Source of the DNA: Escherichia phage vB_EcoM_ESCO32
Direction: 5' to 3' (one strand)
Sequence record: OM386658.1
DNA: 64,000 nt
The translations under genes and the position numbers were made by a program. The notes below the pieces were generated by a model, which did no database searches, was not told where the DNA came from, and saw nothing but the letters and a program-made list of their open reading frames with translations. Numbering within the stretch: the stretch's first letter is position 1; each line of letters starts with the position of its first letter. This document shows positions 25,031 through 57,844 of the stretch, one piece after another.

Positions 25031-25375
25031 TTATTCAAAAGAATCAATTCGATTTTGTTCTATGTCAATTGCAGCATCTAAGATAAGTTTTAATGCTTCA
25101 AATTGCAAGTGTTCTTCTAAAGAGAAGACGTATAAAACAACGGATTCCAAGTAAGACAGCACCCCAAGACTAAGAGTTGCAATTTCTACTCCTGCATCGG
25201 AGAAGCCTGTTTGCAAAACTTCTTTGAAGAAACGTTGTTTATCAACAATAGCAGATAAAATAAGCGTTTTACACTCGTCTGCTGATCGTACTGTGCAGTA
25301 TATGTTGCTAAAAGAATCTAGCCACATTTTGATCATACCCTGTCGGTACATAAGGATTTCAATATCAGCCAACAT
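25031..25375 (-). CDS. hypothetical protein
   Basis: Track ORF 25031..25474 trimmed to ATG after GAGGAG. Confidence 0.5.
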   Translation of the reverse strand: MLADIEILMYRQGMIKMWLDSFSNIYCTVRSADECKTLILSAIVDKQRFFKEVLQTGFSDAGVEIATLSLGVLSYLESVVLYVFSLEEHLQFEALKLILDAAIDIEQNRIDSFE

Positions 25376-25376
25376 A

Positions 25377-25544
25377 TTATTTCTCCTCTGGAGAGAGATT
25401 AGGATTGATTTGATAGTAAAAATCAAAATCCTTGTGTTGATCGCACCATTCTTGAGCTTCTTTAAATGACGCAAATTGCATAGTGAATGTTGCCATCCAC
25501 GTGTTCATACTTTTATTGAACTTGTCGATAAAAAATGTTTGCAT
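25377..25544 (-). CDS. hypothetical protein
   Basis: Track ORF 25377..25565 trimmed to ATG after GGGAGG. Confidence 0.45.
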   Translation of the reverse strand: MQTFFIDKFNKSMNTWMATFTMQFASFKEAQEWCDQHKDFDFYYQINPNLSPEEK

Positions 25545-25762
25545 TATTCCTCCCATTTTATCCAAAGGCAGTATTCTGGAACATAAACCTCCTTCCCTTT
25601 GTTATTTACAAAGGTGTACTCCACAAATTCTGCTTTATATGTTTTGTTATATTCCTCTGCTGCTGGCACAGGACATTTTGTAATGCGCGTTTCAGTCCAA
25701 CGGCGGTGTATAACCGCCTTGTTCTTTGGATCAAATGGATGTATAAAGTGCGTTTTACTCAT
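25544..25762 (-). CDS. hypothetical protein
   Basis: Track ORF. Confidence 0.5.
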   Translation of the reverse strand: MSKTHFIHPFDPKNKAVIHRRWTETRITKCPVPAAEEYNKTYKAEFVEYTFVNNKGKEVYVPEYCLWIKWEE

Positions 25763-26159
25763 GCGCCATTTCCACCAGATTTTTAATCATAGTCTCTCGA
25801 CAGAGATTCCACATATCTGAAGCAACCATAGAGGCATATTCATCGGGGTTGGATTCTGGTAAAATCTCTTTAACGGCTTCTGGTGTCGGGTTGCACATAG
25901 CGGGTAGTGCTTTAAGTGCATCTTCAATAGAGAGCTTCTTACCTTCACTGTAAATAACTTCGTAATCATAGTCATTTACATCTTCTGGAATATCTCGATC
26001 CAGGAAACGTACAGTAGAGTTATGCATTTTGTTCATAGCTTCACTAACACCAGCGCCACAAAGCTGTGCAACTTCTTTAGAGATACAGTCACAAATAACA
26101 ACTTCGTAAGGCTTTCCACCATAATACTGCGCATTATATTTGATTTTAACAGACCACAT
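25755..26159 (-). CDS. hypothetical protein
   Basis: Track ORF; AAGGAG SD. Confidence 0.55.
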   Translation of the reverse strand: MWSVKIKYNAQYYGGKPYEVVICDCISKEVAQLCGAGVSEAMNKMHNSTVRFLDRDIPEDVNDYDYEVIYSEGKKLSIEDALKALPAMCNPTPEAVKEILPESNPDEYASMVASDMWNLCRETMIKNLVEMAHE

Positions 26160-26169
26160 ATTACTCTCC

Positions 26170-26856
26170 TTATTTAACGTGTTTTAGCAATTCAATGTTG
26201 GCAGAATAGTTTTCACCACAATTAGTAACGCTCAACAGTGACCATTTACAAGAGAATACACCTTTTAGATGATCTGGAACACACATCAGCGGAACATAAA
26301 CTGTTTCTGAATCTTCTGTTTGCTCTGTTTTGTTAACATTGCAACAAAATGGCAATACATCATCATGAATCATTTTACATTCACTCAAATTATCTAACAT
26401 ATGTGAAACTTGTTCTGAAGTTTCAAACATTTGTGCTTCACAAGCCAGCGCACCAACCACTTGATAAGCCTCTCCACACAAATCTTCTAGTTCTAAAATA
26501 CGTTCAGACATAGCTTCGATGATTGCTGATCGTGCTTCCACCTTAGTTTCTGCTTCTTTAATTTTCTTCTCAAGTTCTGCAATGTACTTCAGTAGCGCAC
26601 TAACAACATCTTGAGTATTTTCTTGGTCATCTTGGGAAATTTTTACCAAAGAAGAAGCTGCTTTGCAACGTACTTTAGGTTCTACATAACCAAAAGTCAT
26701 ATTTTCCGAAGAAGATTGTTGTGAAAACCAGTGTTTGTTCGAAGAAAACACAGGTTCATCTTCAAACCAGAACACATCTCCAGTGATATCACGAGCCATG
26801 AAATTTGCATTGTCTGGAACTTCGTAACGATGCCCTTCAAACATAATCTCTTTCAT
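26170..26856 (-). CDS. hypothetical protein with central coiled-coil-like segment
   Basis: Track ORF; GGAGG SD. Confidence 0.55.
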   Translation of the reverse strand: MKEIMFEGHRYEVPDNANFMARDITGDVFWFEDEPVFSSNKHWFSQQSSSENMTFGYVEPKVRCKAASSLVKISQDDQENTQDVVSALLKYIAELEKKIKEAETKVEARSAIIEAMSERILELEDLCGEAYQVVGALACEAQMFETSEQVSHMLDNLSECKMIHDDVLPFCCNVNKTEQTEDSETVYVPLMCVPDHLKGVFSCKWSLLSVTNCGENYSANIELLKHVK

Positions 26857-27440
26857 TACACATCCTCCATTTGGAACATCTCTTTGTGGTTAGAATAGAT
26901 CTGTTTGAAAATCTTGTCAAGGCGTTCATATGATTCTTTATGCTCTTGTTTCCATCCATGATTTCGGATTTTATCTGCCAAATCATAAGCCTCGCATAAA
27001 ACTTTGGCAAAGTTGGTATTATCTATAGCACAAGCCTCAAAACCTTGAACTAAACCCTCTACATCATACCATGTATAGTCAGAGTCACTAGGAGTCTTTC
27101 CTGCATCGGCTAAACGTTGCCTCACCCATTCGATACGTTTTTCATTCAAATGGCACTTACCTTCTCTACACTCTTGTTCTAATTCTTCTTTAGATTCATT
27201 GAATGGGTGAAGGACAGGTAGCTCTGCTTTTTGCAATTGCTCCAGATATTCTCCTACAATGCGCATAGCTTCACTGTGTGTACACTTTCTACCTGTGTGC
27301 CAGTAACGGAAGATACTTTCTGTTAAACAGATGTTTTTACTAAACATCGCATTATCTTTAACATTCGATCTATTAACCCAGTCTATATAATATACATAAA
27401 ACTGCAATAATTCATAACTGCTTGGTATAATTTTACTCAT
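26856..27440 (-). CDS. member of 4-gene paralogue family (LxFY...PFN...H.N..R..WV..R)
   Basis: Track ORF; AAGGAG SD; shares motifs with 28064..28432, 30356..30724, 30714..31091. Confidence 0.6.
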   Translation of the reverse strand: MSKIIPSSYELLQFYVYYIDWVNRSNVKDNAMFSKNICLTESIFRYWHTGRKCTHSEAMRIVGEYLEQLQKAELPVLHPFNESKEELEQECREGKCHLNEKRIEWVRQRLADAGKTPSDSDYTWYDVEGLVQGFEACAIDNTNFAKVLCEAYDLADKIRNHGWKQEHKESYERLDKIFKQIYSNHKEMFQMEDV

Positions 27441-27449
27441 AACCTCTCC

Positions 27450-27617
27450 TTAATTGTGAAAAATGTTATCGATCAGTATGACTAGTAGTACGAGGACAGA
27501 AGGGAGCAGGAATAGAAATCTTAACATTATGTGATGCGTGTGAGAAGCGGCTTTAGCGCCAGCCGCCAATAAGCCTACTAATCCTACAATAAAGAGCAGT
27601 TGTTCAGGGACACCCAT
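27450..27617 (-). CDS. small membrane protein, about 55 aa
   Basis: ORF below threshold; hydrophobic; approx coordinates. Confidence 0.3.
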   Translation of the reverse strand: MGVPEQLLFIVGLVGLLAAGAKAASHTHHIMLRFLFLLPSVLVLLVILIDNIFHN

Positions 27618-27618
27618 A

Positions 27619-27843
27619 TTATGGAACACTTGGATACTCCGTAAGTTTGGCTAATAGTTGGATATGTGGACACGTAAACTGTTGTCCTGGATAGCGTGAG
27701 CTAATGTCATCCAGTAAAGCAATCACAGCATTGTGCAATGCTTCGTAATCCTCATAATACACCATCTCTCCATTAGGATCTTCAACAATATCACAGTGAC
27801 AAGCGTGAGCAGTACACGCATCCCATTCCAGACGTTTTACCAT
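27619..27843 (-). CDS. hypothetical Cys/His-rich protein
   Basis: Track ORF; AAGGAGGG SD. Confidence 0.55.
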   Translation of the reverse strand: MVKRLEWDACTAHACHCDIVEDPNGEMVYYEDYEALHNAVIALLDDISSRYPGQQFTCPHIQLLAKLTEYPSVP

Positions 27844-27852
27844 AAACCCTCC

Positions 27853-28071
27853 TTACTCATACATTTGATAAGATACATAACGATTGCAATCAAGTGCGAG
27901 AAACTTTTCAGCATCTCTTTGATGCTTGAACACAATACACTGTTCTTTTTTAGCTGCACTTTCACGAGCTTCTCTTGCCATATACTCACCTAAACGAATG
28001 ATACTAGAGAATAACACGTATGCAAGAATAAGACAAATAGTGATTGCACAGAAAGTTTTAAACTTAACCAT
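27853..28071 (-). CDS. membrane protein, paralogue of 23135..23359
   Basis: Track ORF 27853..28101 trimmed to ATG after GGAGG; KEQCIVFKHQRDAEKFL shared with paralogue. Confidence 0.5.
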   Translation of the reverse strand: MVKFKTFCAITICLILAYVLFSSIIRLGEYMAREARESAAKKEQCIVFKHQRDAEKFLALDCNRYVSYQMYE

Positions 28072-28432
28072 TGTATTCCTCCATATCACGAATACGATCA
28101 ATCACCCATTGTACACGTTCTTTATTAAGGTGTGCAATGCCTAACTCTGTTTCCGTAAAGTAATGTGAGAAATCTGTATTAAATGGGTGTAAATGGTTCA
28201 AACCCGCTTTCTTAAACTGTTCCTTCATTTCCTCTCGTACAGAGGACTGGAGGTTTGCTACATTCTCAACATCTTTTATCCAAGCAATATTGTACAAGAA
28301 GTCTACAAGACACGTGCAAAGACCATAATGCTTTTTGCTAAAGTTTGTATCTTCTTGTTCTAACCACCACTCATAAAATTGTAGCAAATAGGGGCTGCTT
28401 TTCATGTTACACACTTTATTATTTTCTTGCAT
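28064..28432 (-). CDS. paralogue family member
   Basis: Track ORF; AAGGAG SD; LLQFYEWW...GLCTCL...HPFN...HLNKERVQWVIDRI. Confidence 0.6.
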   Translation of the reverse strand: MQENNKVCNMKSSPYLLQFYEWWLEQEDTNFSKKHYGLCTCLVDFLYNIAWIKDVENVANLQSSVREEMKEQFKKAGLNHLHPFNTDFSHYFTETELGIAHLNKERVQWVIDRIRDMEEYNG

Positions 28433-28441
28433 GGCTTCTCC

Positions 28442-28741
28442 TTAATGCCAATCTACGATCACTGAATCTACAAAACCCTCTTTGGTGTTTAAAGCATACA
28501 CCTTACTAAGCCCACGCTCTCGTAGTGCTTCCATAGCAAGATCAATCAAATCAACTTGGCGTTTCCTTGCTTGTTCATTTGTCGGATAGTCATCCAAACC
28601 GAAAACAGATGGTTTAAATGCTTTGGAGTATTTACCAGTTTTAGCCTGATCATAACAGTCCTGAATAACTTCATCAATAGGAAACCATAAACCTTCCCCG
28701 CTTTGCTTTGCAATACAGCGCAGTTTTTCTGTAACAGTCAT
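28442..28741 (-). CDS. hypothetical protein
   Basis: Track ORF; AAAGGAGAGG SD. Confidence 0.55.
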   Translation of the reverse strand: MTVTEKLRCIAKQSGEGLWFPIDEVIQDCYDQAKTGKYSKAFKPSVFGLDDYPTNEQARKRQVDLIDLAMEALRERGLSKVYALNTKEGFVDSVIVDWH

Positions 28742-28950
28742 TCTTCCTCTCCTTTCAATTTATACTCAAAGATACCATTCTTAATGTTATCTGTCAAATA
28801 AAGGTTATCTTCTATCTCTTCTTTTGTATACACATAAGCCTCCTTTTCCACGTCTGTCAGACCTTGCATCGGAGCTAGTAGCCACCAGCCCCGCCAGTCA
28901 AACATAGGAGACTTATCAGATACACGAAGAATGTATCTGGCATTACACAT
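28738..28950 (-). CDS. hypothetical protein
   Basis: Track ORF; start uncertain. Confidence 0.45.
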   Translation of the reverse strand: MCNARYILRVSDKSPMFDWRGWWLLAPMQGLTDVEKEAYVYTKEEIEDNLYLTDNIKNGIFEYKLKGEEE

Positions 28951-28953
28951 ATA

Positions 28954-29406
28954 TTATACGATGTTCACACTAATATCTGCAACACCAACAAGAGAATAGA
29001 CTTCAACTACACTCTGTGTACGATCCAGCTTGTAACGTTTCGCCTCTTTTTCAACTTCCTCACGGGAGATGGTTTCCATGATCGGAACTCCATCCACTAC
29101 AAGCAGGTATTTCTCTTCGTGTTTACTTTTTGGTGCTTCCTCTAAGACTTCTACAAAATACTCAAACTCACTTTTTGCAAGCAACGTGTAACACTGAAGA
29201 AAGTCTCCTTCATTTTGAGCGATAATTTCTTGTTCTCCTGCTAAGGATTGCAAAGCAGTGACACCATACCAATCATCCACATCTAATACACGAAAATAGG
29301 AATCACCTAAAAAAGAAGCAATCCTGCTATTACACTCAGACATGTTAGCAAACTTACGGATATAAGATGGGTTTTTAAAACGATACACTTTACCAATTTC
29401 AAACAT
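28954..29406 (-). CDS. hypothetical protein
   Basis: Track ORF; AAGGA SD. Confidence 0.55.
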   Translation of the reverse strand: MFEIGKVYRFKNPSYIRKFANMSECNSRIASFLGDSYFRVLDVDDWYGVTALQSLAGEQEIIAQNEGDFLQCYTLLAKSEFEYFVEVLEEAPKSKHEEKYLLVVDGVPIMETISREEVEKEAKRYKLDRTQSVVEVYSLVGVADISVNIV

Positions 29407-29417
29407 TACACAAATCC

Positions 29418-29594
29418 TTATTGTTCAAGAGTAAAAGGAATGATTTCACTATAGCTGTATTGCATGGCATTCACTTCTGCTTCTGCACGTTGTGCTAGTT
29501 CTAATGTTGCACAGATCTTGTAAGGTACAGTGCTGCATTGGCTCCAGCCTGGGGTATTCTTTGTTACTAAGTACACAGTAGTTTGTTTATCCAT
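29418..29594 (-). CDS. small protein, 58 aa
   Basis: ORF below threshold; GAGAGGAAAAG SD; fills gap. Confidence 0.35.
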   Translation of the reverse strand: MDKQTTVYLVTKNTPGWSQCSTVPYKICATLELAQRAEAEVNAMQYSYSEIIPFTLEQ

Positions 29595-29609
29595 CTTCTT
29601 TTCCTCTCT

Positions 29610-29825
29610 TTAAACAGTATATTCGTGTGGAAGGAAAACATAATCTTCTCCTTCAACAACATCAACTACTTCCCACTTCCAGCCAGGTACTTGGCTCATT
29701 GTCTTGAATGACACATAAGCAACTCCGCTGTAAGCGATATCGGCATCTAATATAAGAGGGAAAGCAACGTGTGTCAACCCCAGATAACCACAATTATTTT
29801 CAATACACACCTGAATGCTTTTCAT
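29610..29825 (-). CDS. hypothetical protein
   Basis: Track ORF 29610..29870 trimmed to ATG overlapping upstream stop. Confidence 0.45.
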   Translation of the reverse strand: MKSIQVCIENNCGYLGLTHVAFPLILDADIAYSGVAYVSFKTMSQVPGWKWEVVDVVEGEDYVFLPHEYTV

Positions 29826-29826
29826 G

Positions 29827-30285
29827 TTATGCTCCATTAAAGACGGGGCGTGTAGCATTACGTTCATCATTCACTGTAATAAGGTTTTTCATAACCATAA
29901 CACCCTGAATATAGCCTAGCCAACGATGGCGTTTGGTTTCAGACATACCATTACTCCCATCCTGAATTTCACTCAACATCCACAGTAAGTGGGGAACACC
30001 TGTTTCACTGGTATCTGGATCTTCTACAGAACTAAGAATCGTTTCATAGCGTTCACAAATTTCTGGGTAGAATTCATAATCCTGTTGTACATCTCGCATT
30101 TCTCGAATGAAGTGACGAGCAATAGGCTTCCCACGAAAATATTCATTGATGAAATCAATAACACACATCTCGCTGCCTGTCACCACGGAAGGCGTTCCTA
30201 TGTTAAATTGAACACTCACACCGCATTCTTTTACAAGATTATGTACACGCTCCGTGTTAGCAAGATACAAAGATACAGTTTTCAT
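29827..30285 (-). CDS. hypothetical protein
   Basis: Track ORF; GAGAGGTG SD. Confidence 0.55.
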   Translation of the reverse strand: MKTVSLYLANTERVHNLVKECGVSVQFNIGTPSVVTGSEMCVIDFINEYFRGKPIARHFIREMRDVQQDYEFYPEICERYETILSSVEDPDTSETGVPHLLWMLSEIQDGSNGMSETKRHRWLGYIQGVMVMKNLITVNDERNATRPVFNGA

Positions 30286-30355
30286 TTACACCTCTCATTA
30301 GTAGTTTGTTATGCGCGATATTGCATATTTTATGGAACACAGTGTACAGGCATTT

Positions 30356-30724
30356 CTATTCAATGCAAGCATTATTTGCATCTTCGATTCTGTCTTTCAC
30401 CCATTGAAGACGTAACGTGTTGGTATGACACGCCAAGTCTATACACTCTGAAAGGTAATCCATGCAATCTGCATTGAACGGAAGATTGTAGTCCAGTCCT
30501 GCACATGTAAATTGTTTCCTCATTTCGTATTTCAAACTATCCAACAAACGATCACGCCATCTTTTATCTTCTTCTCTAGTTACCTCACCAACAAAATCAT
30601 CTACATAATCTACCAGACAACCACATAAGCCACTCGTTGTGCGATTCATTGCAGGATGGTTGGCAATCCATGCTTTATAGAATCGTATTAAAGCTGCACT
30701 ACTCAACGGAATATTACTTTTCAT
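30356..30724 (-). CDS. paralogue family member
   Basis: Track ORF; LIRFYKAW...GLCGCL...LPFN...HTNTLRLQWVKDRI. Confidence 0.6.
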   Translation of the reverse strand: MKSNIPLSSAALIRFYKAWIANHPAMNRTTSGLCGCLVDYVDDFVGEVTREEDKRWRDRLLDSLKYEMRKQFTCAGLDYNLPFNADCMDYLSECIDLACHTNTLRLQWVKDRIEDANNACIE

Positions 30725-31091
30725 TATTACCCCCTAACACCAAACATGAATCGGCAATACGATCTTTCACCCACTGCAATCTCCCTGGGTTAGTATGGCA
30801 AGAATGTTTCTTACCTTCATCTTCATAACACAGAAGGTCATCATTAAAGGGCAGGAAGGAGGATAGCCCAGCACACGTGAATTGCAATTTCATCTCTTCT
30901 AGCGTTTTACTACGAACCATCTTGAAATGTTCTATATCTTCTTGCGTAGGTTTTTTCTTTGACATAGTGGTTGCCAGATAATCCATAAGGCAAATACACA
31001 AACCAACATTCTCACGATGCATTGAGGAATGATCTTCCATCCATGCTTTGTAAAATTCTAACAGCAGTGGACTGCTAAGAGGAACACACAT
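30714..31091 (-). CDS. paralogue family member
   Basis: Track ORF 30714..31148 trimmed to ATG after AAGGAG (matches paralogue N-termini); LLEFYKAW...GLCICL...LPFN...HTNPGRLQWVKDRI. Confidence 0.55.
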   Translation of the reverse strand: MCVPLSSPLLLEFYKAWMEDHSSMHRENVGLCICLMDYLATTMSKKKPTQEDIEHFKMVRSKTLEEMKLQFTCAGLSSFLPFNDDLLCYEDEGKKHSCHTNPGRLQWVKDRIADSCLVLGGNNEK

Positions 31092-31461
31092 ATCAGACTC
31101 CTTTATAAATTTACGTTTCATGCCACACATCATACAGCATCTTTTCATCTATTACAAGAACAGCAACATAGAAACATCATTAATGGAGGGCTTAGTATAG
31201 GAATTAGTATAGGTATTCCCTATCAATTATTCTATATATACCTATTATTTTTAACACACCCCTTTGTACATAATATAGACAAATAAATATCTATGCCACA
31301 AAAATTTTCCGGTATACCCGATTTATTTCGACACACCCTTTTTCATAAGCGTAAAGTCAATAATATCAATAACTTGCCGCAAAATACTGCTCGCTTGCGA
31401 GAGGTGCTTAACGCGATTTTCAGCGCCCCCCGATTTCTGCCGACCGTCCCCCTCAAATATC

Positions 31462-31480
31462 AATGAGAATAATTATCATT
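31462..31480. promoter_or_regulatory. Fur-box-like palindrome
   Basis: AATGAGAATAATTATCATT, followed by TTGCAT; approx. Confidence 0.4.
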
Positions 31481-31658
31481 TGCATTATCATTCAATGACT
31501 TATAAGACTTTTGATTATTTTCTGAGCAAGAAAGGTACTACTCACAACAAAACAGATAAATTCTAAGTAAATCAATGGCTTGGCAAGTCTAAACATCTAT
31601 ATACACCTTGCCAAATGAAATGATCTGGCGTGAAATAGTGCCACCCGTGGAAGATAAC

Positions 31659-31675
31659 TGATAATGATTATCATT
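31659..31675. promoter_or_regulatory. Fur-box-like palindrome (best copy)
   Basis: ctGATAATGATTATCATTtgc matches 16 of 19 positions of Fur consensus GATAATGATAATCATTATC; preceded by GATAAC hexamer. Confidence 0.45.
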
Positions 31676-32542
31676 TGCATACTTTCTGTACTATAAAACC
31701 GACTAAAAATCAAGATAATTCTGATTTATTGCGCTTTTAAGAAAGTAGGCTCAACAAATAGGGGAATACATTGCAACAAATGAGGTATGTTATAGGGGCA
31801 ATAGTATGAAAAATCATCTATTCAGATAAAATAATTTTGCGCAATAGTGGCAATATTTTTCTTGACAAGAAAGATTTCTTTGTGTTCACATAGCGCCCCC
31901 TGGAGGGTGGCGCATTATGATCATCAGTGTCATTATTCATTTCAGTGTTATTATTCACCATGTTTATTATATGCAGCTTATATTATAGCCAATGTTCTAA
32001 ACATTAGCTAATAATAACGCACCGCAACAATGTAAGGGAATACAATATACTCGTATATTGTTGCGCTTGCAATTGTTGCAAGCTACATAAGCACAAATAA
32101 TAACTATCGGTGATGGTTATTATGTGGGGTGTGTAGTTGCGTTATTATTAGCCGCCTATGTGTCCGGCATAGGCTGCTAATGATACGCTTGCGAATTATA
32201 TTTCTTGTTATAGTTATTGTATGAAATGATTACTACATGAAATGGTTATTTAGGTAATAGATAGGGAGGTAAAGATTAGATCATAAATAGATAGGATATT
32301 AATTATTTAGCAATGTTACTAACAATTTAATAGTTACTTTGTGCAACAATTCGATAGATTATAGTTATAGTTTTAAGGGTTAGATAGATTATAGTTAGCT
32401 TAGTAATGATTTACATTGATTATTGTTGTTTAATATAAGGTTATCAATAAGATAGTAACAGTATGTTATAAATAAAAGTAAGATAATTAGCTTTAATTTA
32501 GTTAGATAACTTATTATTTTATAAGTTAGATGGTCTTAAGTT

Positions 32543-32561
32543 AAGAATGATTATCATTATT
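32543..32561. promoter_or_regulatory. Fur-box-like palindrome
   Basis: AAGAATGATTATCATTATT. Confidence 0.4.
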
Positions 32562-32597
32562 GCATTATGCAGTTTATTGCATAAATAATCAGCTATA

Positions 32598-32618
32598 AAT
32601 GAAAATGATTATCACTTA
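32598..32618. promoter_or_regulatory. Fur-box-like palindrome
   Basis: AAATGAAAATGATTATCACTT; the segment AATGATTATCACTTA recurs at about 44268. Confidence 0.4.
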
Positions 32619-32821
32619 AGAGGAAAGACAAGAAAAAGGCTGTTTTTGCCAGATAGTTACATTGAGAAATTAAAAATAAGCGGTCTAAAACACGTTGTAA
32701 GCGCCTTATGATCTTCATGGTATGGTTGTTCATCTGCTCCTTGATTAGCTCGATACCGCGATCTATTCACTTTTTTCGGTGAACGTTTTTGATAGGTAAA
32801 AGCTATCATCTTTATTTAGGT

Positions 32822-32850
32822 AAAAAGAAAGGGCGCTTTGTGCGCCCTGG
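32822..32850 (-). terminator. rho-independent terminator (minus strand)
   Basis: GGGCGC-TTTGT-GCGCCC hairpin with T-run on minus strand after gene 32864..33247; same hairpin family at 34304 and 38518. Confidence 0.6.
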
Positions 32851-32863
32851 TGTGAAATGTTAT

Positions 32864-44221: not shown

Positions 44222-44332
44222 AAATGAGAAAATTCTCATTTGCTAATGATTCTCATTCTCTTACTGAGAATGATTATCACTTACATAGTTAAATGATAAT
44301 GATTCTCATTTACAAATGAGAATCATTATCAT
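44222..44332. promoter_or_regulatory. cluster of five Fur-box-like palindromes
   Basis: AAATGAGAAAATTCTCATTT; TAATGATTCTCATT; GAGAATGATTATCACTT; GATAATGATTCTCATTTAC (15 of 19 to Fur consensus); AATGAGAATCATTATCAT. Confidence 0.45.
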
Positions 44333-55069: not shown

Positions 55070-57844
55070 ATGGCTAAGAAAGAGTTGAGCTTCACTCCGA
55101 CAGAAGAGCAAACAGCTATTAAGGAGGCTTTTCCAGACCATCGCTTTTTAACTATCCAAGCTAAATCTGGGTCAGGCAAAACGTCAACACTTTATTTGCT
55201 GGCTAACAGTACAGAAGATCGCATTCTTTACTTAGCTTTCAATAAAAGCATGGCAGAAGAAGCACGACGTAAGATGCCACTAAATGTAGAATGCCGTACA
55301 TTGCATTCTATTTGCTATCAATTCCTGGATCATCGTTTACGTGCAAAACTGTCACGACCAGAAGGACAGTATGTTAACGTTGCAGGTACAGGTAGTGAGA
55401 TAGCAAAGAAATTTAAGATTAATAATCTTATTGATAAACGAGGGAAAACACTTTTAACTCGTGCTATGATCGGTTTAATGATCAAGCAAACCGTAGGTAA
55501 GTTTGAATTTTCGGATGATCCTTTTATCAGCCGTAAACATTTTCCTAGTGTACATCTTGCAGATATTAAAAGAAAAGGTATTAACGAACACAAACTAATT
55601 ACAGAAGTAGTTAAGTATGCAAAACAATTGTGGCGAGAGCGCATCGATCCTAACACAGACACTTTGATGACGCATGACACCTATGTAAAATTGTTTGAAT
55701 TATCTGGTGCTGATCTTGGTTATGATATTATTTTTGGTGATGAATTCCAGGATGTTAACCCTGCATTCTTATCTATTCTGCGAAATGCTAAATCTGCAAA
55801 ACAAATTGTGGTAGTGGGCGATGAATTCCAATGTGTGTCGGAAAACACGGTACTTAATACCGAGAATGGTCAGGTTACAATGAAAGACCTGCAAATCGGT
55901 GATAAGGTAGAGTCTTATTCTAATGGTAAAGTTACATTTAGAAAAGTAACAAATAAGACTTTATCTACACGTACAAAAGGTAGGAATATTATTACTGCCA
56001 CAGGTAAAACTTTAGATATGACACATAACCATCGTATTTGGGCTTCATCCTATGTTCTGAAAGATGATCAGATGGTGGTATACCTAATGTGGAGGAAAGA
56101 TTTAGGTTTCCGAGTAGGGATCACTAACAAATTCGATGATAAAGAAGGTTTTTCTAAACTGGGGCAACGTACACGTTCTGAAAAAGCACAGAAATTGTGG
56201 GTGTTGGATATTGTTGAAAACCGTGAAGCTGCTATGGAAAAAGAAATGGCATACAGTTTACAATATGGCATTCCTACTTGTGTATTTGAAGCAAGTTCAC
56301 GCGGCATTAATCAAGAAAGGATCAATAACATTTTTGAACAATTCGGACAAAACGGTTTTAAACTTTTAGAGGATAAAGATTATCATTTTGCTTATCCACA
56401 TTGGCACAGCATCAATTGTGCAGTAGATGAAAGAAAAATGTTAACAGTGACTTTGCGAGCACAAGGTTGTAAAGGAACACAAGTTAGTTTTGAGTGGACA
56501 GAAAGTGAAATGTCAATCTATGCTTCACTCATTGAAGCAGGTGTAAGCGTAAGTGTTGCTAAGTTGGAAGGTCGTTACCGTGTACGTAAATATTTCAATT
56601 CTTATCGTGAAGCATTGAGTTTTGCACAAAAGATCCTTGAAATAGTGCCGTTTGCATCTTTAAAAGAATGCATGTCCTCTGTGAACACCGCCAAATATAC
56701 TTTAATTCCGGCGGCGGGTTTGTTTAAAGGCATGTCTGTGTTGGTAAAAGATGGTGATACTGTAACGGCAGAAGAAATTGTGGACATTGTAGATAGTGAA
56801 GGTATCTATTATGATATTGAAGTAGAGGATACTGCTAACTTCTTTGGCAATGAAATTCTTAGCCACAACTGCATTTATCAATTTAGAGGTAGCTCTAATA
56901 TGATGATTGAAACAGCTAAGTATGGGGCAGAGCTTCCATTAACTGCTTGCTTCCGTTTTGGCCCCAAAGTGGCAAACATTGCCAATATGATTTTAAGCGA
57001 TAAAGAACCTTTGCGTCATCCTTTGGTTGGTAAAGGCTTTGATACTGTAGTAGGTAGCTACAAATCAGATGTTGTAGACTATACAAAACCTTACACTATC
57101 ATCTTTCGCAAGAATTTAACCTTGCTTATGGAGGCAATGGATCGTATTGCAGATGGGGAAGAAATTATTATTAACGTAGACACCAGGGATTTTATCTCTA
57201 TGGTAGATAGTGTTAATGCTCTTCGGAGAGGAGATATTGAGAAAGTAAAACATGAAACTGTATTACCTTACGCAGACTGGGATGAATTTGTTGAGTGTGC
57301 AGAGGCTGATCCAGATGCTAAACGCTTGTTAAACATTGTAGTTTCTGGTAAGGCAAACACTATAGCACATACACTTAGAACGCATAGAAATTCTCCTACA
57401 GCAAAAGTCACACTGACTACAGCACATAAGTCTAAAGGTTTGGAGTGGGATCAGGTTATTGTTGCTAATGATTTTCCTTCCAATTATGATAAAAAGACTG
57501 GTGAGTGGGTAGGACTAGAAGAGGCAGAGCGAAACCTACTGTATGTAGCGCATACCCGTTGTGTTAAATGCTTACAATGGAACACAACCGTACAGGAGAT
57601 TATAGATATCAACCGTGTTGCAACAGAGAAAGTACCAACAAGCACCACTTTACCGATCAATGGTATTAAACTTGGTGTATTTGGCGCTGGCACATCTCGA
57701 AAAGCTGTAGAAAAATTTGTTGCAGATTCTTTTGATGGTAACTATAATCATGCACAAGCATATGAGAGTTGGCTAGAGGAAGGTGAAGGTGATTTTTTAG
57801 GTGAAATAAATCTTTTACCAGACATAAATAAACTGGTAAACTAA
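55070..57844 (+). CDS. UvrD/PcrA-like superfamily 1 helicase containing an intein
   Basis: Track ORF trimmed to ATG 55070; Walker A AKSGSGKTST, motif II IIFGDEFQD; motif III is split (VVVGDEFQ / CIYQFRGSS) by a 346-aa insertion. Confidence 0.8.
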   Translation: MAKKELSFTPTEEQTAIKEAFPDHRFLTIQAKSGSGKTSTLYLLANSTEDRILYLAFNKSMAEEARRKMPLNVECRTLHSICYQFLDHRLRAKLSRPEGQYVNVAGTGSEIAKKFKINNLIDKRGKTLLTRAMIGLMIKQTVGKFEFSDDPFISRKHFPSVHLADIKRKGINEHKLITEVVKYAKQLWRERIDPNTDTLMTHDTYVKLFELSGADLGYDIIFGDEFQDVNPAFLSILRNAKSAKQIVVVGDEFQCVSENTVLNTENGQVTMKDLQIGDKVESYSNGKVTFRKVTNKTLSTRTKGRNIITATGKTLDMTHNHRIWASSYVLKDDQMVVYLMWRKDLGFRVGITNKFDDKEGFSKLGQRTRSEKAQKLWVLDIVENREAAMEKEMAYSLQYGIPTCVFEASSRGINQERINNIFEQFGQNGFKLLEDKDYHFAYPHWHSINCAVDERKMLTVTLRAQGCKGTQVSFEWTESEMSIYASLIEAGVSVSVAKLEGRYRVRKYFNSYREALSFAQKILEIVPFASLKECMSSVNTAKYTLIPAAGLFKGMSVLVKDGDTVTAEEIVDIVDSEGIYYDIEVEDTANFFGNEILSHNCIYQFRGSSNMMIETAKYGAELPLTACFRFGPKVANIANMILSDKEPLRHPLVGKGFDTVVGSYKSDVVDYTKPYTIIFRKNLTLLMEAMDRIADGEEIIINVDTRDFISMVDSVNALRRGDIEKVKHETVLPYADWDEFVECAEADPDAKRLLNIVVSGKANTIAHTLRTHRNSPTAKVTLTTAHKSKGLEWDQVIVANDFPSNYDKKTGEWVGLEEAERNLLYVAHTRCVKCLQWNTTVQEIIDINRVATEKVPTSTTLPINGIKLGVFGAGTSRKAVEKFVADSFDGNYNHAQAYESWLEEGEGDFLGEINLLPDINKLVN
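55832..56869 (+). mobile_element. intein (346 aa) inserted in helicase motif III
   Basis: Starts with Cys (CVSENTVLN, block A), block B LDMTHNHRIW, C-terminal blocks YYDIEVEDTANFFGNEILSHN ending His-Asn, followed by +1 Cys; size implies an internal endonuclease-like domain. Confidence 0.75.

What the first reader, a model, noticed from the sequence alone, without database searches (positions are those of the whole stretch)
26856..31091. Four-member paralogous gene family with conserved Cys/His positions
Genes 26856..27440, 28064..28432, 30356..30724 and 30714..31091 share L(L/I)xFYxxW...GLCxCL...(L/H)PFN...H(T/L)N..R(L/I)QWVxDRI. The last two are adjacent and directly abut the non-coding island. 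Repeated duplication and divergence of a small putative metal-binding protein suggests an arms-race function (for example inhibitors of host defence or exclusion proteins).
Basis: seen in the sequence. Interest (0 to 1): 0.5.

Follow-up and report, generated by a model that had tools for sequence, protein, structure and literature searches.

The report
Multi-copy orphan early phage protein family
Four neighbouring early genes of this phi92-like E. coli phage are true duplicates of a small, acidic, all-helical protein of unknown function that is widespread in phages, but the proposed metal site and rapid arms-race evolution are not supported.

Summary
The four minus-strand ORFs are real paralogues: pairwise Smith-Waterman z-scores are 11-45 against shuffles, all four hit PHROG 2510, and there is no fifth copy in the window.

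The window is a phi92-like Justusliebigvirus. The four genes lie in a leftward block of small genes of unknown function. C and D overlap by 11 nt and are the first genes after a 1.7-kb non-coding island.

The family is large (776 clusters at 50% identity) and almost entirely phage-borne. It has no Pfam, NCBIfam or PDB relative. AlphaFold gives a confident six-helix domain (pLDDT 87) with no solved fold relative.

The family recurs in several copies at the early ends of unrelated phages: 9 domains in Citrobacter phage Tr1, and genes 2-3 of a T7-like Rhizobium phage. In prophages it occurs as a module inside mosaic P22-type EaA/EaD proteins.

- **Metal binding is not supported.** Only one Cys is general (95%). 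The second Cys of "CxC" is usually Asn, and the His is replaced in 20% of members.
- **Ongoing positive selection is not supported.** Orthologue dN/dS is 0.08-0.13, the same as the neighbouring genes. Only the C/D copy number varies.

My best guess (inferred, not shown) is a soluble early host-takeover or counter-defence binding module with a conserved scaffold and a hypervariable H3-H4 segment.

The parts
26856..27440 (-). Paralogue A (194 aa; phi92 gp010 orthologue). It has an N-terminal family domain (aa 1 to about 118, nt about 27087..27440) and a C-terminal helical extension of about 75 aa (nt 26856..27086). Its stop overlaps the start of the next gene (TAATG).
   Evidence: ORF. phrog_27059 at E = 5e-140 and phrog_2510 at E = 2e-17. 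Family HMM E = 1.5e-30, aa 4-119. The AlphaFold model has the same helix order plus helices 127-189, with pLDDT 72. Junction sequence. Orthologues are 97-100% identical in 12 relatives; dN/dS = 0.10.
28064..28432 (-). Paralogue B (122 aa; phi92 gp006 orthologue), a single family domain.
   Evidence: ORF. phrog_2510 at E = 1.5e-25. The AlphaFold model has pLDDT 87 and pTM 0.81, with six helices. Orthologues are 96-99% identical in all 12 relatives; dN/dS = 0.08.
30356..30724 (-). Paralogue C (122 aa; phAPEC8 gp244-like), the Cys-rich subtype (7 Cys). Its start overlaps the stop of D by 11 nt.
   Evidence: ORF. phrog_2510 at E = 4e-24. Absent from JLBYU50, JohannJBalmer and KKE7M. dN/dS = 0.13. 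Junction sequence.
30714..31091 (-). Paralogue D (125 aa), the Cys-rich subtype (7 Cys). It is the first gene downstream of the non-coding island, and its start at 31091 is preceded by AAGGAG.
   Evidence: ORF and Shine-Dalgarno site. phrog_2510 at E = 4.5e-21. The HMM alignment begins at the Met encoded at 31091. Absent from phage muut. dN/dS = 0.12.
31092..32863 (.). Context only: a conserved non-coding island upstream of D on the minus strand. It is bounded on its upstream side by an intrinsic-terminator-like hairpin at 32848..32830 (-). It contains Fur-box-like palindromes and other repeats. Several GenBank relatives are linearised inside it.
   Evidence: No credible ORFs. Terminator-like hairpin. 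Repeats. Fur-box-like sites. No Rfam hit. Conserved at 91-95% identity, with record ends inside it.
26170..26856 (-). Context only: a 228-aa gene (phi92 gp011 orthologue) translationally coupled to A. One GenBank relative annotates it 'ead/Ea22-like'.
   Evidence: ORF. JLBYU50 annotation. phrog_28884, unknown function. No Pfam confirmation. No homology to the modules fused to the domain in prophage proteins.

Best explanation
The four genes encode paralogues of a phage-specific, soluble, acidic domain of about 110 aa with six helices (PHROG 2510, pVOG 7392). No function is known for it.

Shown: the proteins are real and under purifying selection, and the genes lie at the head of a leftward block of small genes of unknown function.

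Inferred: they are made immediately after infection and act as host-takeover or counter-defence factors that bind host proteins. On this reading the conserved residues build an invariant scaffold. These are the helix-1 face LxxFYxxW, the GLC helix cap, EMxxQFxxAGL, the PFN loop, the HxN cap and RxxWVxxRI. The hypervariable, indel-rich segment between the end of helix 3 and the start of helix 4 (B residues about 46-63) would carry target specificity. Several diverged copies per genome would then cover several targets or target variants.

Copy number changes through unequal recombination between tandem copies (the C/D pair). The same domain is reused as one bead in mosaic EaA/EaD-type early proteins of temperate phages.
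For: **Real paralogous genes under constraint.** Pairwise z = 11-45, shared PHROG, orthologue dN/dS of 0.08-0.13.

**Autonomous folded domain.** AlphaFold pLDDT 87 and pTM 0.81 for B. Paralogue A shows the same helix order. The domain occurs alone, as an intramolecular tandem, or embedded between other modules.

**Soluble and acidic.** pI of A-D is 5.2-5.9; the family median is 5.4. No transmembrane segment.

**Early position in unrelated phages.**
- D and C are the first genes after the non-coding island, at the head of a long leftward array of small genes of unknown function.
- Citrobacter phage Tr1 has 8 genes / 9 domains in the equivalent block, with a pair abutting its own island.
- T7-like Rhizobium phage RHph_N37 has the domain in genes 002 and 003 at the extreme left end.
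- In Salmonella and E. coli temperate phages it is fused to P22-type EaA/EaD modules.

**Almost entirely phage-borne.** 177 phage records against 1 plasmid record.

**Scaffold plus variable segment.** Entropy is 1.3-2.3 bits in H1, the PFN loop, the HxN loop and H6. It is 3.4-3.8 bits with 43-47% gaps at residues 46-63.

**Copy-number flux at the tandem pair**.
Against: - No binding partner, phenotype or expression data exist. Early timing is inferred from gene order only.
- The sigma-70 promoter scan of the island is not enriched over shuffles (35 sites against 28 +/- 5).
- Many conserved residues are polar (S, C, E, Q, N, Y, E, H, N, R). They could form a ligand pocket or an active site rather than a scaffold. 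I could not inspect model coordinates.
- Orthologue dN/dS is low, so there is no sign of current antagonistic co-evolution.
- PADLOC holds defence models, not anti-defence models, so the lack of hits says nothing either way.
- A and B are invariably present and 96-100% conserved across relatives. That fits a core housekeeping role in infection as well as it fits an accessory counter-defence role.
Confidence: 0.4

Rival explanations
1. Small metal-binding (zinc) protein. Cys/His side chains from the GLCxCL motif and the (C)HxN motif would coordinate a structural or functional metal ion.
For: C and D carry 7 Cys each. A C/D-like subclade shows the pattern C33/C35/C69/C89/C94/H95 (local numbering), and the extra Cys co-occur strongly (Fisher p = 1e-5 to 1e-13). 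One Cys (95%) and one His (80%) are widely conserved.
Against: - Family-wide only one Cys is general. The second Cys of CxC is Asn in 54% of members. The Cys before His is present in 56%.
- His is replaced by Tyr, Arg, Ser or other residues in 20% of members, and by Tyr, Arg or Asn in one or both halves of tandem-domain proteins.
- Paralogue B has only the CxC and the His.
- There are no CxxC knuckles and no zinc-finger Pfam hit in 112 members.
- The co-occurrence statistic is confounded by shared ancestry within one subclade.
- The fold is a helical bundle that AlphaFold predicts confidently without a metal.
Confidence: 0.12
2. A thiol enzyme. The Cys at the N-terminus of helix 3 would be a nucleophile activated by the helix dipole, paired with His101/Asn103 and Gln72 in a papain-like Cys-His-Asn plus oxyanion-Gln arrangement. 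The enzyme would modify or cleave a host target.
For: C39 (95%), Q72 (96%), N103 (91%), H101 (80%), E68 (92%) and R106 (99%) are conserved polar residues, more than a simple inhibitor usually needs. The Cys sits in the first turn of a helix. All four window paralogues keep C, Q, H and N.
Against: - 20% of members lack the His, including both halves of some tandem proteins.
- Several of the conserved polar residues lie at helix N-caps (SS before H1, N85 before H5, N103 before H6), where conservation can be purely structural.
- The spatial proximity of C39 and H101 could not be tested.
Confidence: 0.1
3. A small-molecule binder ('sponge') that sequesters a host immune signal or a metabolite. The conserved polar residues would line the pocket.
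For: Small, soluble, early and multi-copy, with a dense set of conserved polar residues. It is widespread in phages of many Proteobacteria, as expected for a conserved ligand rather than a variable protein target.
Against: No fold similarity to any solved sponge or other PDB structure. Multiple diverged paralogues per genome and a hypervariable segment are not needed for one conserved ligand. There is no direct evidence.
Confidence: 0.08
4. A DNA-binding early transcription regulator with a helix-turn-helix-like bundle.
Confidence: 0.05

Closest known systems
PHROG 2510 (with satellites phrog_27059 and phrog_6418) / pVOG VOG7392: catalogued phage protein clusters of unknown function
   Same: All four paralogues match phrog_2510 at E = 1e-17 to 1e-25. 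GenBank records of relatives tag the orthologues of A, B and D with VOG7392. The family is therefore already catalogued.
   Different: The catalogues give no function, fold or domain definition. They do not record the multi-copy early arrangement, the tandem-domain and mosaic forms, or the motif structure described here.
Mosaic Ea proteins of lambdoid and P22-like phages (P22 EaA/EaD; 'ead/Ea22-like family protein'; lambda Ea22, PMC10834534 and PMC7093339)
   Same: In temperate-phage proteins (P0107, P0113, P0146, P0153 and others) this domain is one module between Pro/Ala-rich linkers. The N-terminal modules of those proteins match genes annotated EaA/EaD. Like the ea genes, these are early, small and of unknown molecular function. 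According to the abstract of PMC10834534, lambda ea22 is among the earliest transcribed genes and favours lysogeny.
First-entering early anti-restriction or host-takeover genes of T7-like phages (for example T7 gp0.3 Ocr), cited from general knowledge
   Same: Small, acidic, soluble proteins encoded at the very start of the early region. In T7-like Rhizobium phage RHph_N37 the family occupies genes 002-003 at the left end.
   Different: No sequence or structural similarity to Ocr or to any solved structure. This is an analogy of position and physico-chemistry only. It was not tested functionally.

Membership tests
PHROG 2510 (uncharacterised phage protein family) | Significant match to the family profile HMM over most of the domain | tested here: met
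   A E = 1.9e-17, B 1.5e-25, C 4.1e-24, D 4.5e-21, each covering about 105-140 profile positions.
Zinc-finger / zinc-ribbon type small metal-binding proteins | Three to four conserved Cys/His ligands, typically as CxxC / CxxH pairs, conserved across the family | tested here: not met
   Only one Cys is conserved at 90% or more. The second CxC Cys is present in 25% of members, the Cys before His in 56%, and the His in 80%. No CxxC pairs. No zinc-finger Pfam hit in 112 members.
Zinc-finger / zinc-ribbon type small metal-binding proteins | Candidate ligands lie within coordination distance in the 3D structure | not testable with these tools
   Structure prediction returns confidence and secondary structure only.
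Lambda Ea22 family | Sequence or fold similarity to the Ea22 C-terminal domain (solved by NMR, PMC10834534) | tested here: not met
Papain-like / transglutaminase-like Cys-His enzymes | Alpha+beta papain-type fold with an invariant Cys-His-(Asn/Asp) triad | tested here: not met
Helix-turn-helix / winged-helix DNA-binding regulators | Significant fold or profile match to an HTH family, and a basic DNA-binding surface | tested here: not met
Membrane superinfection-exclusion proteins (T4 Imm/Sp, P22 SieA, Cor/Llp type) | Transmembrane segment, signal peptide or lipobox | tested here: not met
   Maximum Kyte-Doolittle 19-residue window is 0.66-1.09, below the threshold of about 1.6. The N-termini are hydrophilic.
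Crl (sigma-S binding protein) | Match above the curated threshold to PF07417 / NF008217 | tested here: not met
   Only B matches, at 13-15 bits against cut-offs of 27 and 117 bits. Crl is alpha/beta (general knowledge), while this domain is all-alpha.
Known anti-defence protein families (Ocr, Ard, Acr, Tad, Gad, Acb and others) | Profile match to a curated anti-defence HMM (for example dbAPIS or AntiDefenseFinder), or fold match to a solved member | tested here: inconclusive
   No fold match to any PDB chain released up to April 2026. No anti-defence HMM library was available, and PADLOC covers defence systems only.

The most novel reading that the evidence does not exclude
This domain may be a previously unrecognised, very widespread class of immediate-early phage effector with a new fold, absent from Pfam and the PDB. 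Its conserved Cys/Gln/His/Asn/Glu/Arg residues would form a functional pocket, either catalytic or ligand-binding. Its paralogues would each neutralise a different host immune or housekeeping target. The same domain would be the active bead in mosaic Ea proteins of temperate phages, which would give the long-enigmatic ea/exo-xis accessory regions a first mechanistic handle.
Probability: 0.15. Interest if true: 0.75.

Novelty: new member of a known kind. Interest (0 to 1): 0.38.

Why it matters
If these proteins are early effectors, they are a tractable entry point into the unannotated early regions of large lytic coliphages. These include the phi92/phAPEC8 group, members of which are in the BASEL collection.

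- The domain is widespread: 776 clusters at 50% identity.
- It folds confidently into a domain with no solved relative.
- It sits at the first-expressed end of unrelated phage types.
- It is also a module of the enigmatic Ea proteins of lambdoid and P22-like prophages.

A single structure or interaction screen would therefore annotate hundreds of protein clusters. As it stands, the window shows an ordinary phenomenon (paralogous early genes of unknown function), and the specific metal-binding idea is not supported.

Tried and rejected
- **Pfam, NCBIfam and PADLOC scans of A-D**. Only sub-threshold noise appeared: Crl, ATG11, DREPP, TenA and Cas12d. All were rejected as being far below the curated cut-offs.
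- **Pfam scan of 112 diverse members** and PDB sequence profile searches: nothing.
- **Rosetta-stone test.** I asked whether any window neighbour is homologous to the modules fused to the domain in prophage proteins. It is not. The only hit, P0011, is a deletion chimera of A with the ORF at 25031..25474.
- **Neighbour annotations.** JLBYU50 labels the neighbours 'DUF551' and 'ead/Ea22-like'. Pfam did not confirm either on the window's own proteins.
- **Indexed homologue searches** gave few or no named proteins.
- **Genome-contig scans** failed. Alignment A3 had no conserved stretch to search with, and alignment A4 gave 123 pattern hits, none confirmed. The distribution in prophages rests.
- **IMG/VR scan** gave only 2 loci.
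- **Paralogue-level dN/dS** was not attempted. At 28-48% amino-acid identity the synonymous sites are saturated. Orthologue-level dN/dS was used instead.
- **Literature searches** on Ea22, EaA/P22, phi92 early genes, Stephanstirmvirinae anti-defence, phAPEC8 paralogues and Justusliebigvirus transcripts found no functional description of this family.
- **Promoter scan of the island** was not enriched over shuffles. Early promoters there are therefore assumed, not shown.


Full report
**1. What is there**

The window is a phi92-like Escherichia myovirus (Stephanstirmvirinae, Justusliebigvirus). Positions 26000-32000 are 96-97% identical over their full length to phages outra, Eryne, Paula, EmilieFrey and others.

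In phage PATM the four genes are annotated as Phi92_gp010 (A), Phi92_gp006 (B), phAPEC8 gp244-like (C) and a PHB05 hypothetical (D). The D start at 31091 has an AAGGAG Shine-Dalgarno site 6 nt upstream, and the family HMM alignment begins at that Met.

**2. Is the similarity real?**

Yes.

- The four-way alignment has 24 invariant columns.
- Pairwise Smith-Waterman scores are 82-247, against shuffle means of 27-32, so z = 11-45. None of 500 shuffles reached the observed score.
- All four match phrog_2510 at E = 1e-17 to 1e-25.
- Relatives' records tag the orthologues of A, B and D with pVOG VOG7392.
- An HMM of the family finds exactly four members in the 64-kb window.

A is the most divergent (28-35% identity) and lacks the canonical GLCxCL.

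**3. Are they functional genes, and are they in an arms race?**

I compared the region in 12 close relatives. A and B are always present and 96-100% identical at the protein level.

The C/D tandem pair varies. Both genes are present in PATM, outra, inny, Eryne, EmilieFrey and EC_OE_11. Only a D-like gene is present in JLBYU50, JohannJBalmer and KKE7M. Only a C-like gene is present in muut.

One database cluster, P0003, is D with the C-terminal tail of C. D and C overlap by 11 nt. Both facts fit unequal recombination between tandem copies.

Pooled Nei-Gojobori dN/dS for orthologues is 0.10 (A), 0.08 (B), 0.13 (C) and 0.12 (D). Eight neighbouring genes give 0.04-0.19. The proteins are therefore under ordinary purifying selection. 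I see copy-number flux but no sign of ongoing diversifying selection.

**4. How large is the family?**

- An exhaustive HMMER profile search finds 776 representative clusters (50% identity) at E of 1e-3 or less, and 168 at 1e-10 or less. Most are stand-alone proteins of 100-120 aa.
- Some proteins are intramolecular tandems (P0030, P0033, P0048, P0050, P0056).
- Some are mosaics in which the domain lies between Pro/Ala-rich linkers and other modules (P0102, P0107, P0110, P0113, P0123, P0126, P0127, P0146, P0153). One is fused to DUF551 (P0155).
- The N-terminal modules of the mosaics match genes annotated EaA/EaD in P22-like and Jersey-like Salmonella phages.
- tblastn finds the domain in 177 phage records. 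They include Stephanstirmvirinae, rV5-like, Pectobacterium, Erwinia, Rhizobium, Salmonella and Klebsiella phages. Only one plasmid record has it.
- BFVD fold hits add Burkholderia, Delftia and Achromobacter phages.

**5. The multi-copy early arrangement recurs**

Citrobacter phage Tr1 (Stephanstirmvirinae) has 8 genes / 9 domains in the equivalent leftward block. These include adjacent pairs, and the last pair abuts a stretch that holds only tiny ORFs.

T7-like Rhizobium phage RHph_N37 has a single-domain gene 002 and a tandem-domain gene 003 at the extreme left end of the genome.

In the window, D and C are the first genes after a 1.77-kb island. The island follows a terminator-like hairpin at 32848..32830. 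It is conserved at 91-95% identity in relatives, and several deposited genomes are linearised inside it.

All neighbours are PHROGs of unknown function. Early expression is inferred from this layout. It is not shown, and the promoter scan is not enriched over shuffles.

**6. Structure**

AlphaFold2 on B with a 27-sequence alignment gives pLDDT 87 and pTM 0.81. The model has six helices: 14-25, 31-35, 38-53, 58-75, 88-97 and 104-121.

A gives the same helix order, then a linker and a lower-confidence three-helix C-terminal extension (pLDDT 72).

**7. The metal-site idea**

I tallied conservation across 155 diverse domain instances, in B numbering.

- Near-universal positions are S13, L16, F19, Y20, G37, L38, C39 (95%), E68, Q72, F73, A76, G77, L78, P83, F84, N85, Y91, E94, N103, R106, W109 and V110.
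- H101 is present in 80% of members. It is replaced by Tyr, Arg, Ser or other residues in the rest, and by Tyr, Arg or Asn in tandem-domain proteins.
- The second Cys of CxC is Asn in 54% and Cys in 25%.
- The Cys before His is present in 56%.

A C/D-like subclade carries additional co-occurring Cys, but that statistic is confounded by shared ancestry. Several conserved polar residues sit at helix N-caps, where structural conservation is expected.

A family-wide Cys/His metal site is therefore not supported.

**8. Other properties**

The proteins are acidic (pI 5.2-5.9; family median 5.4) and have no transmembrane segment. This argues against DNA-binding regulators and against membrane exclusion proteins.

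Variability and indels concentrate in residues about 46-63, which span the end of H3, the loop and the start of H4. Entropy there is 3.4-3.8 bits with 43-47% gaps. In H1, the PFN loop, the HxN loop and H6 entropy is 1.3-2.3 bits.

**9. Interpretation**

The best-supported reading, at about 0.4 confidence, is a soluble early binding module. It would combine a conserved scaffold with a variable specificity segment, be amplified and reshuffled in phage early regions, and be used for host takeover or counter-defence.

The steps that are shown:

- paralogy;
- purifying selection;
- a confident, orphan predicted fold;
- phage restriction;
- a recurrent position at the early end, in several copies;
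- copy-number flux;
- modular reuse in Ea-type mosaics.

The steps that are inferred: early expression, protein binding, and a host target.

The rivals are a metal protein (0.12), a thiol enzyme (0.10), a ligand sponge (0.08) and a DNA-binding regulator (0.05). The remaining probability goes to functions I cannot name.

No paper in the searchable library describes a function for this family.

**10. Verdict**

The feature is a new set of members of an already catalogued, uncharacterised phage protein family. Interest is moderate, at 0.38.

Noticed in passing
window 31660-31678, 32543-32561 (island); also 31466-31480 and 32585-32621 (weaker copies); 44242-44260, 44295-44313, 56372-56390: Palindromes resembling the E. 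coli Fur box (GATAATGATAATCATTATC) are strongly over-represented. There are 6 matches with 3 or fewer mismatches, against 0.04 expected and a maximum of 2 in 100 shuffles. Two matches, plus weaker copies forming a 37-nt repeat family, lie in the non-coding island upstream of gene D. They could be phage operators, or sites that recruit or titrate host Fur.
   Followed up: partly
window 31092-32863: The 1.77-kb non-coding island is conserved at 91-95% identity among relatives. It has no Rfam match. It contains several direct and inverted repeats, for example a perfect 15-nt inverted repeat at 32007-32021 / 32138-32152. Several GenBank relatives (VEcB, PHB05) end their records inside it, at about window 31752-31774. 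That suggests a genome terminus or a conventional linearisation point.
   Followed up: partly
window 26170-26856 (-) and 25755-26159 (-): One relative (JLBYU50) annotates the gene translationally coupled to paralogue A as 'ead/Ea22-like', and the next gene as 'DUF551'. Pfam does not confirm either on the window proteins. The 228-aa protein has a long central helical or coiled-coil-like region, seen as a weak YkyA hit.
   Followed up: partly
window 28954-29406 (-): This 150-aa early protein has a weak PHROG match to T4 'goF mRNA metabolism modulator' (phrog_2980, E = 9e-7, N-terminal 70 aa). It has stronger matches to families of unknown function.
   Followed up: no
window 25031-25474 (-) / protein P0011: A metagenomic relative encodes a 166-aa chimera. 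Its first part is the N-terminal domain of paralogue A, and its last 63 aa match the window ORF at 25034..25504. This implies a deletion of about 1.9 kb in some relatives that fuses the two genes.
   Followed up: no
window 25544-25762 (-): This 72-aa protein matches Pfam DUF7202 strongly (E = 5.5e-35). Several GenBank relatives label its orthologue 'putative ABC transporter ATP-binding protein' or 'metal-dependent phosphohydrolase', which looks like annotation error propagation.
   Followed up: no
GenBank records MG065645, MG065689, MG065639, MG065656: Four records named 'Campylobacter phage' (host given as C. jejuni) are about 97% identical to this E. coli Justusliebigvirus region over 6 kb. 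That is surprising for the stated host and suggests mislabelling or contamination in those deposits.
   Followed up: no
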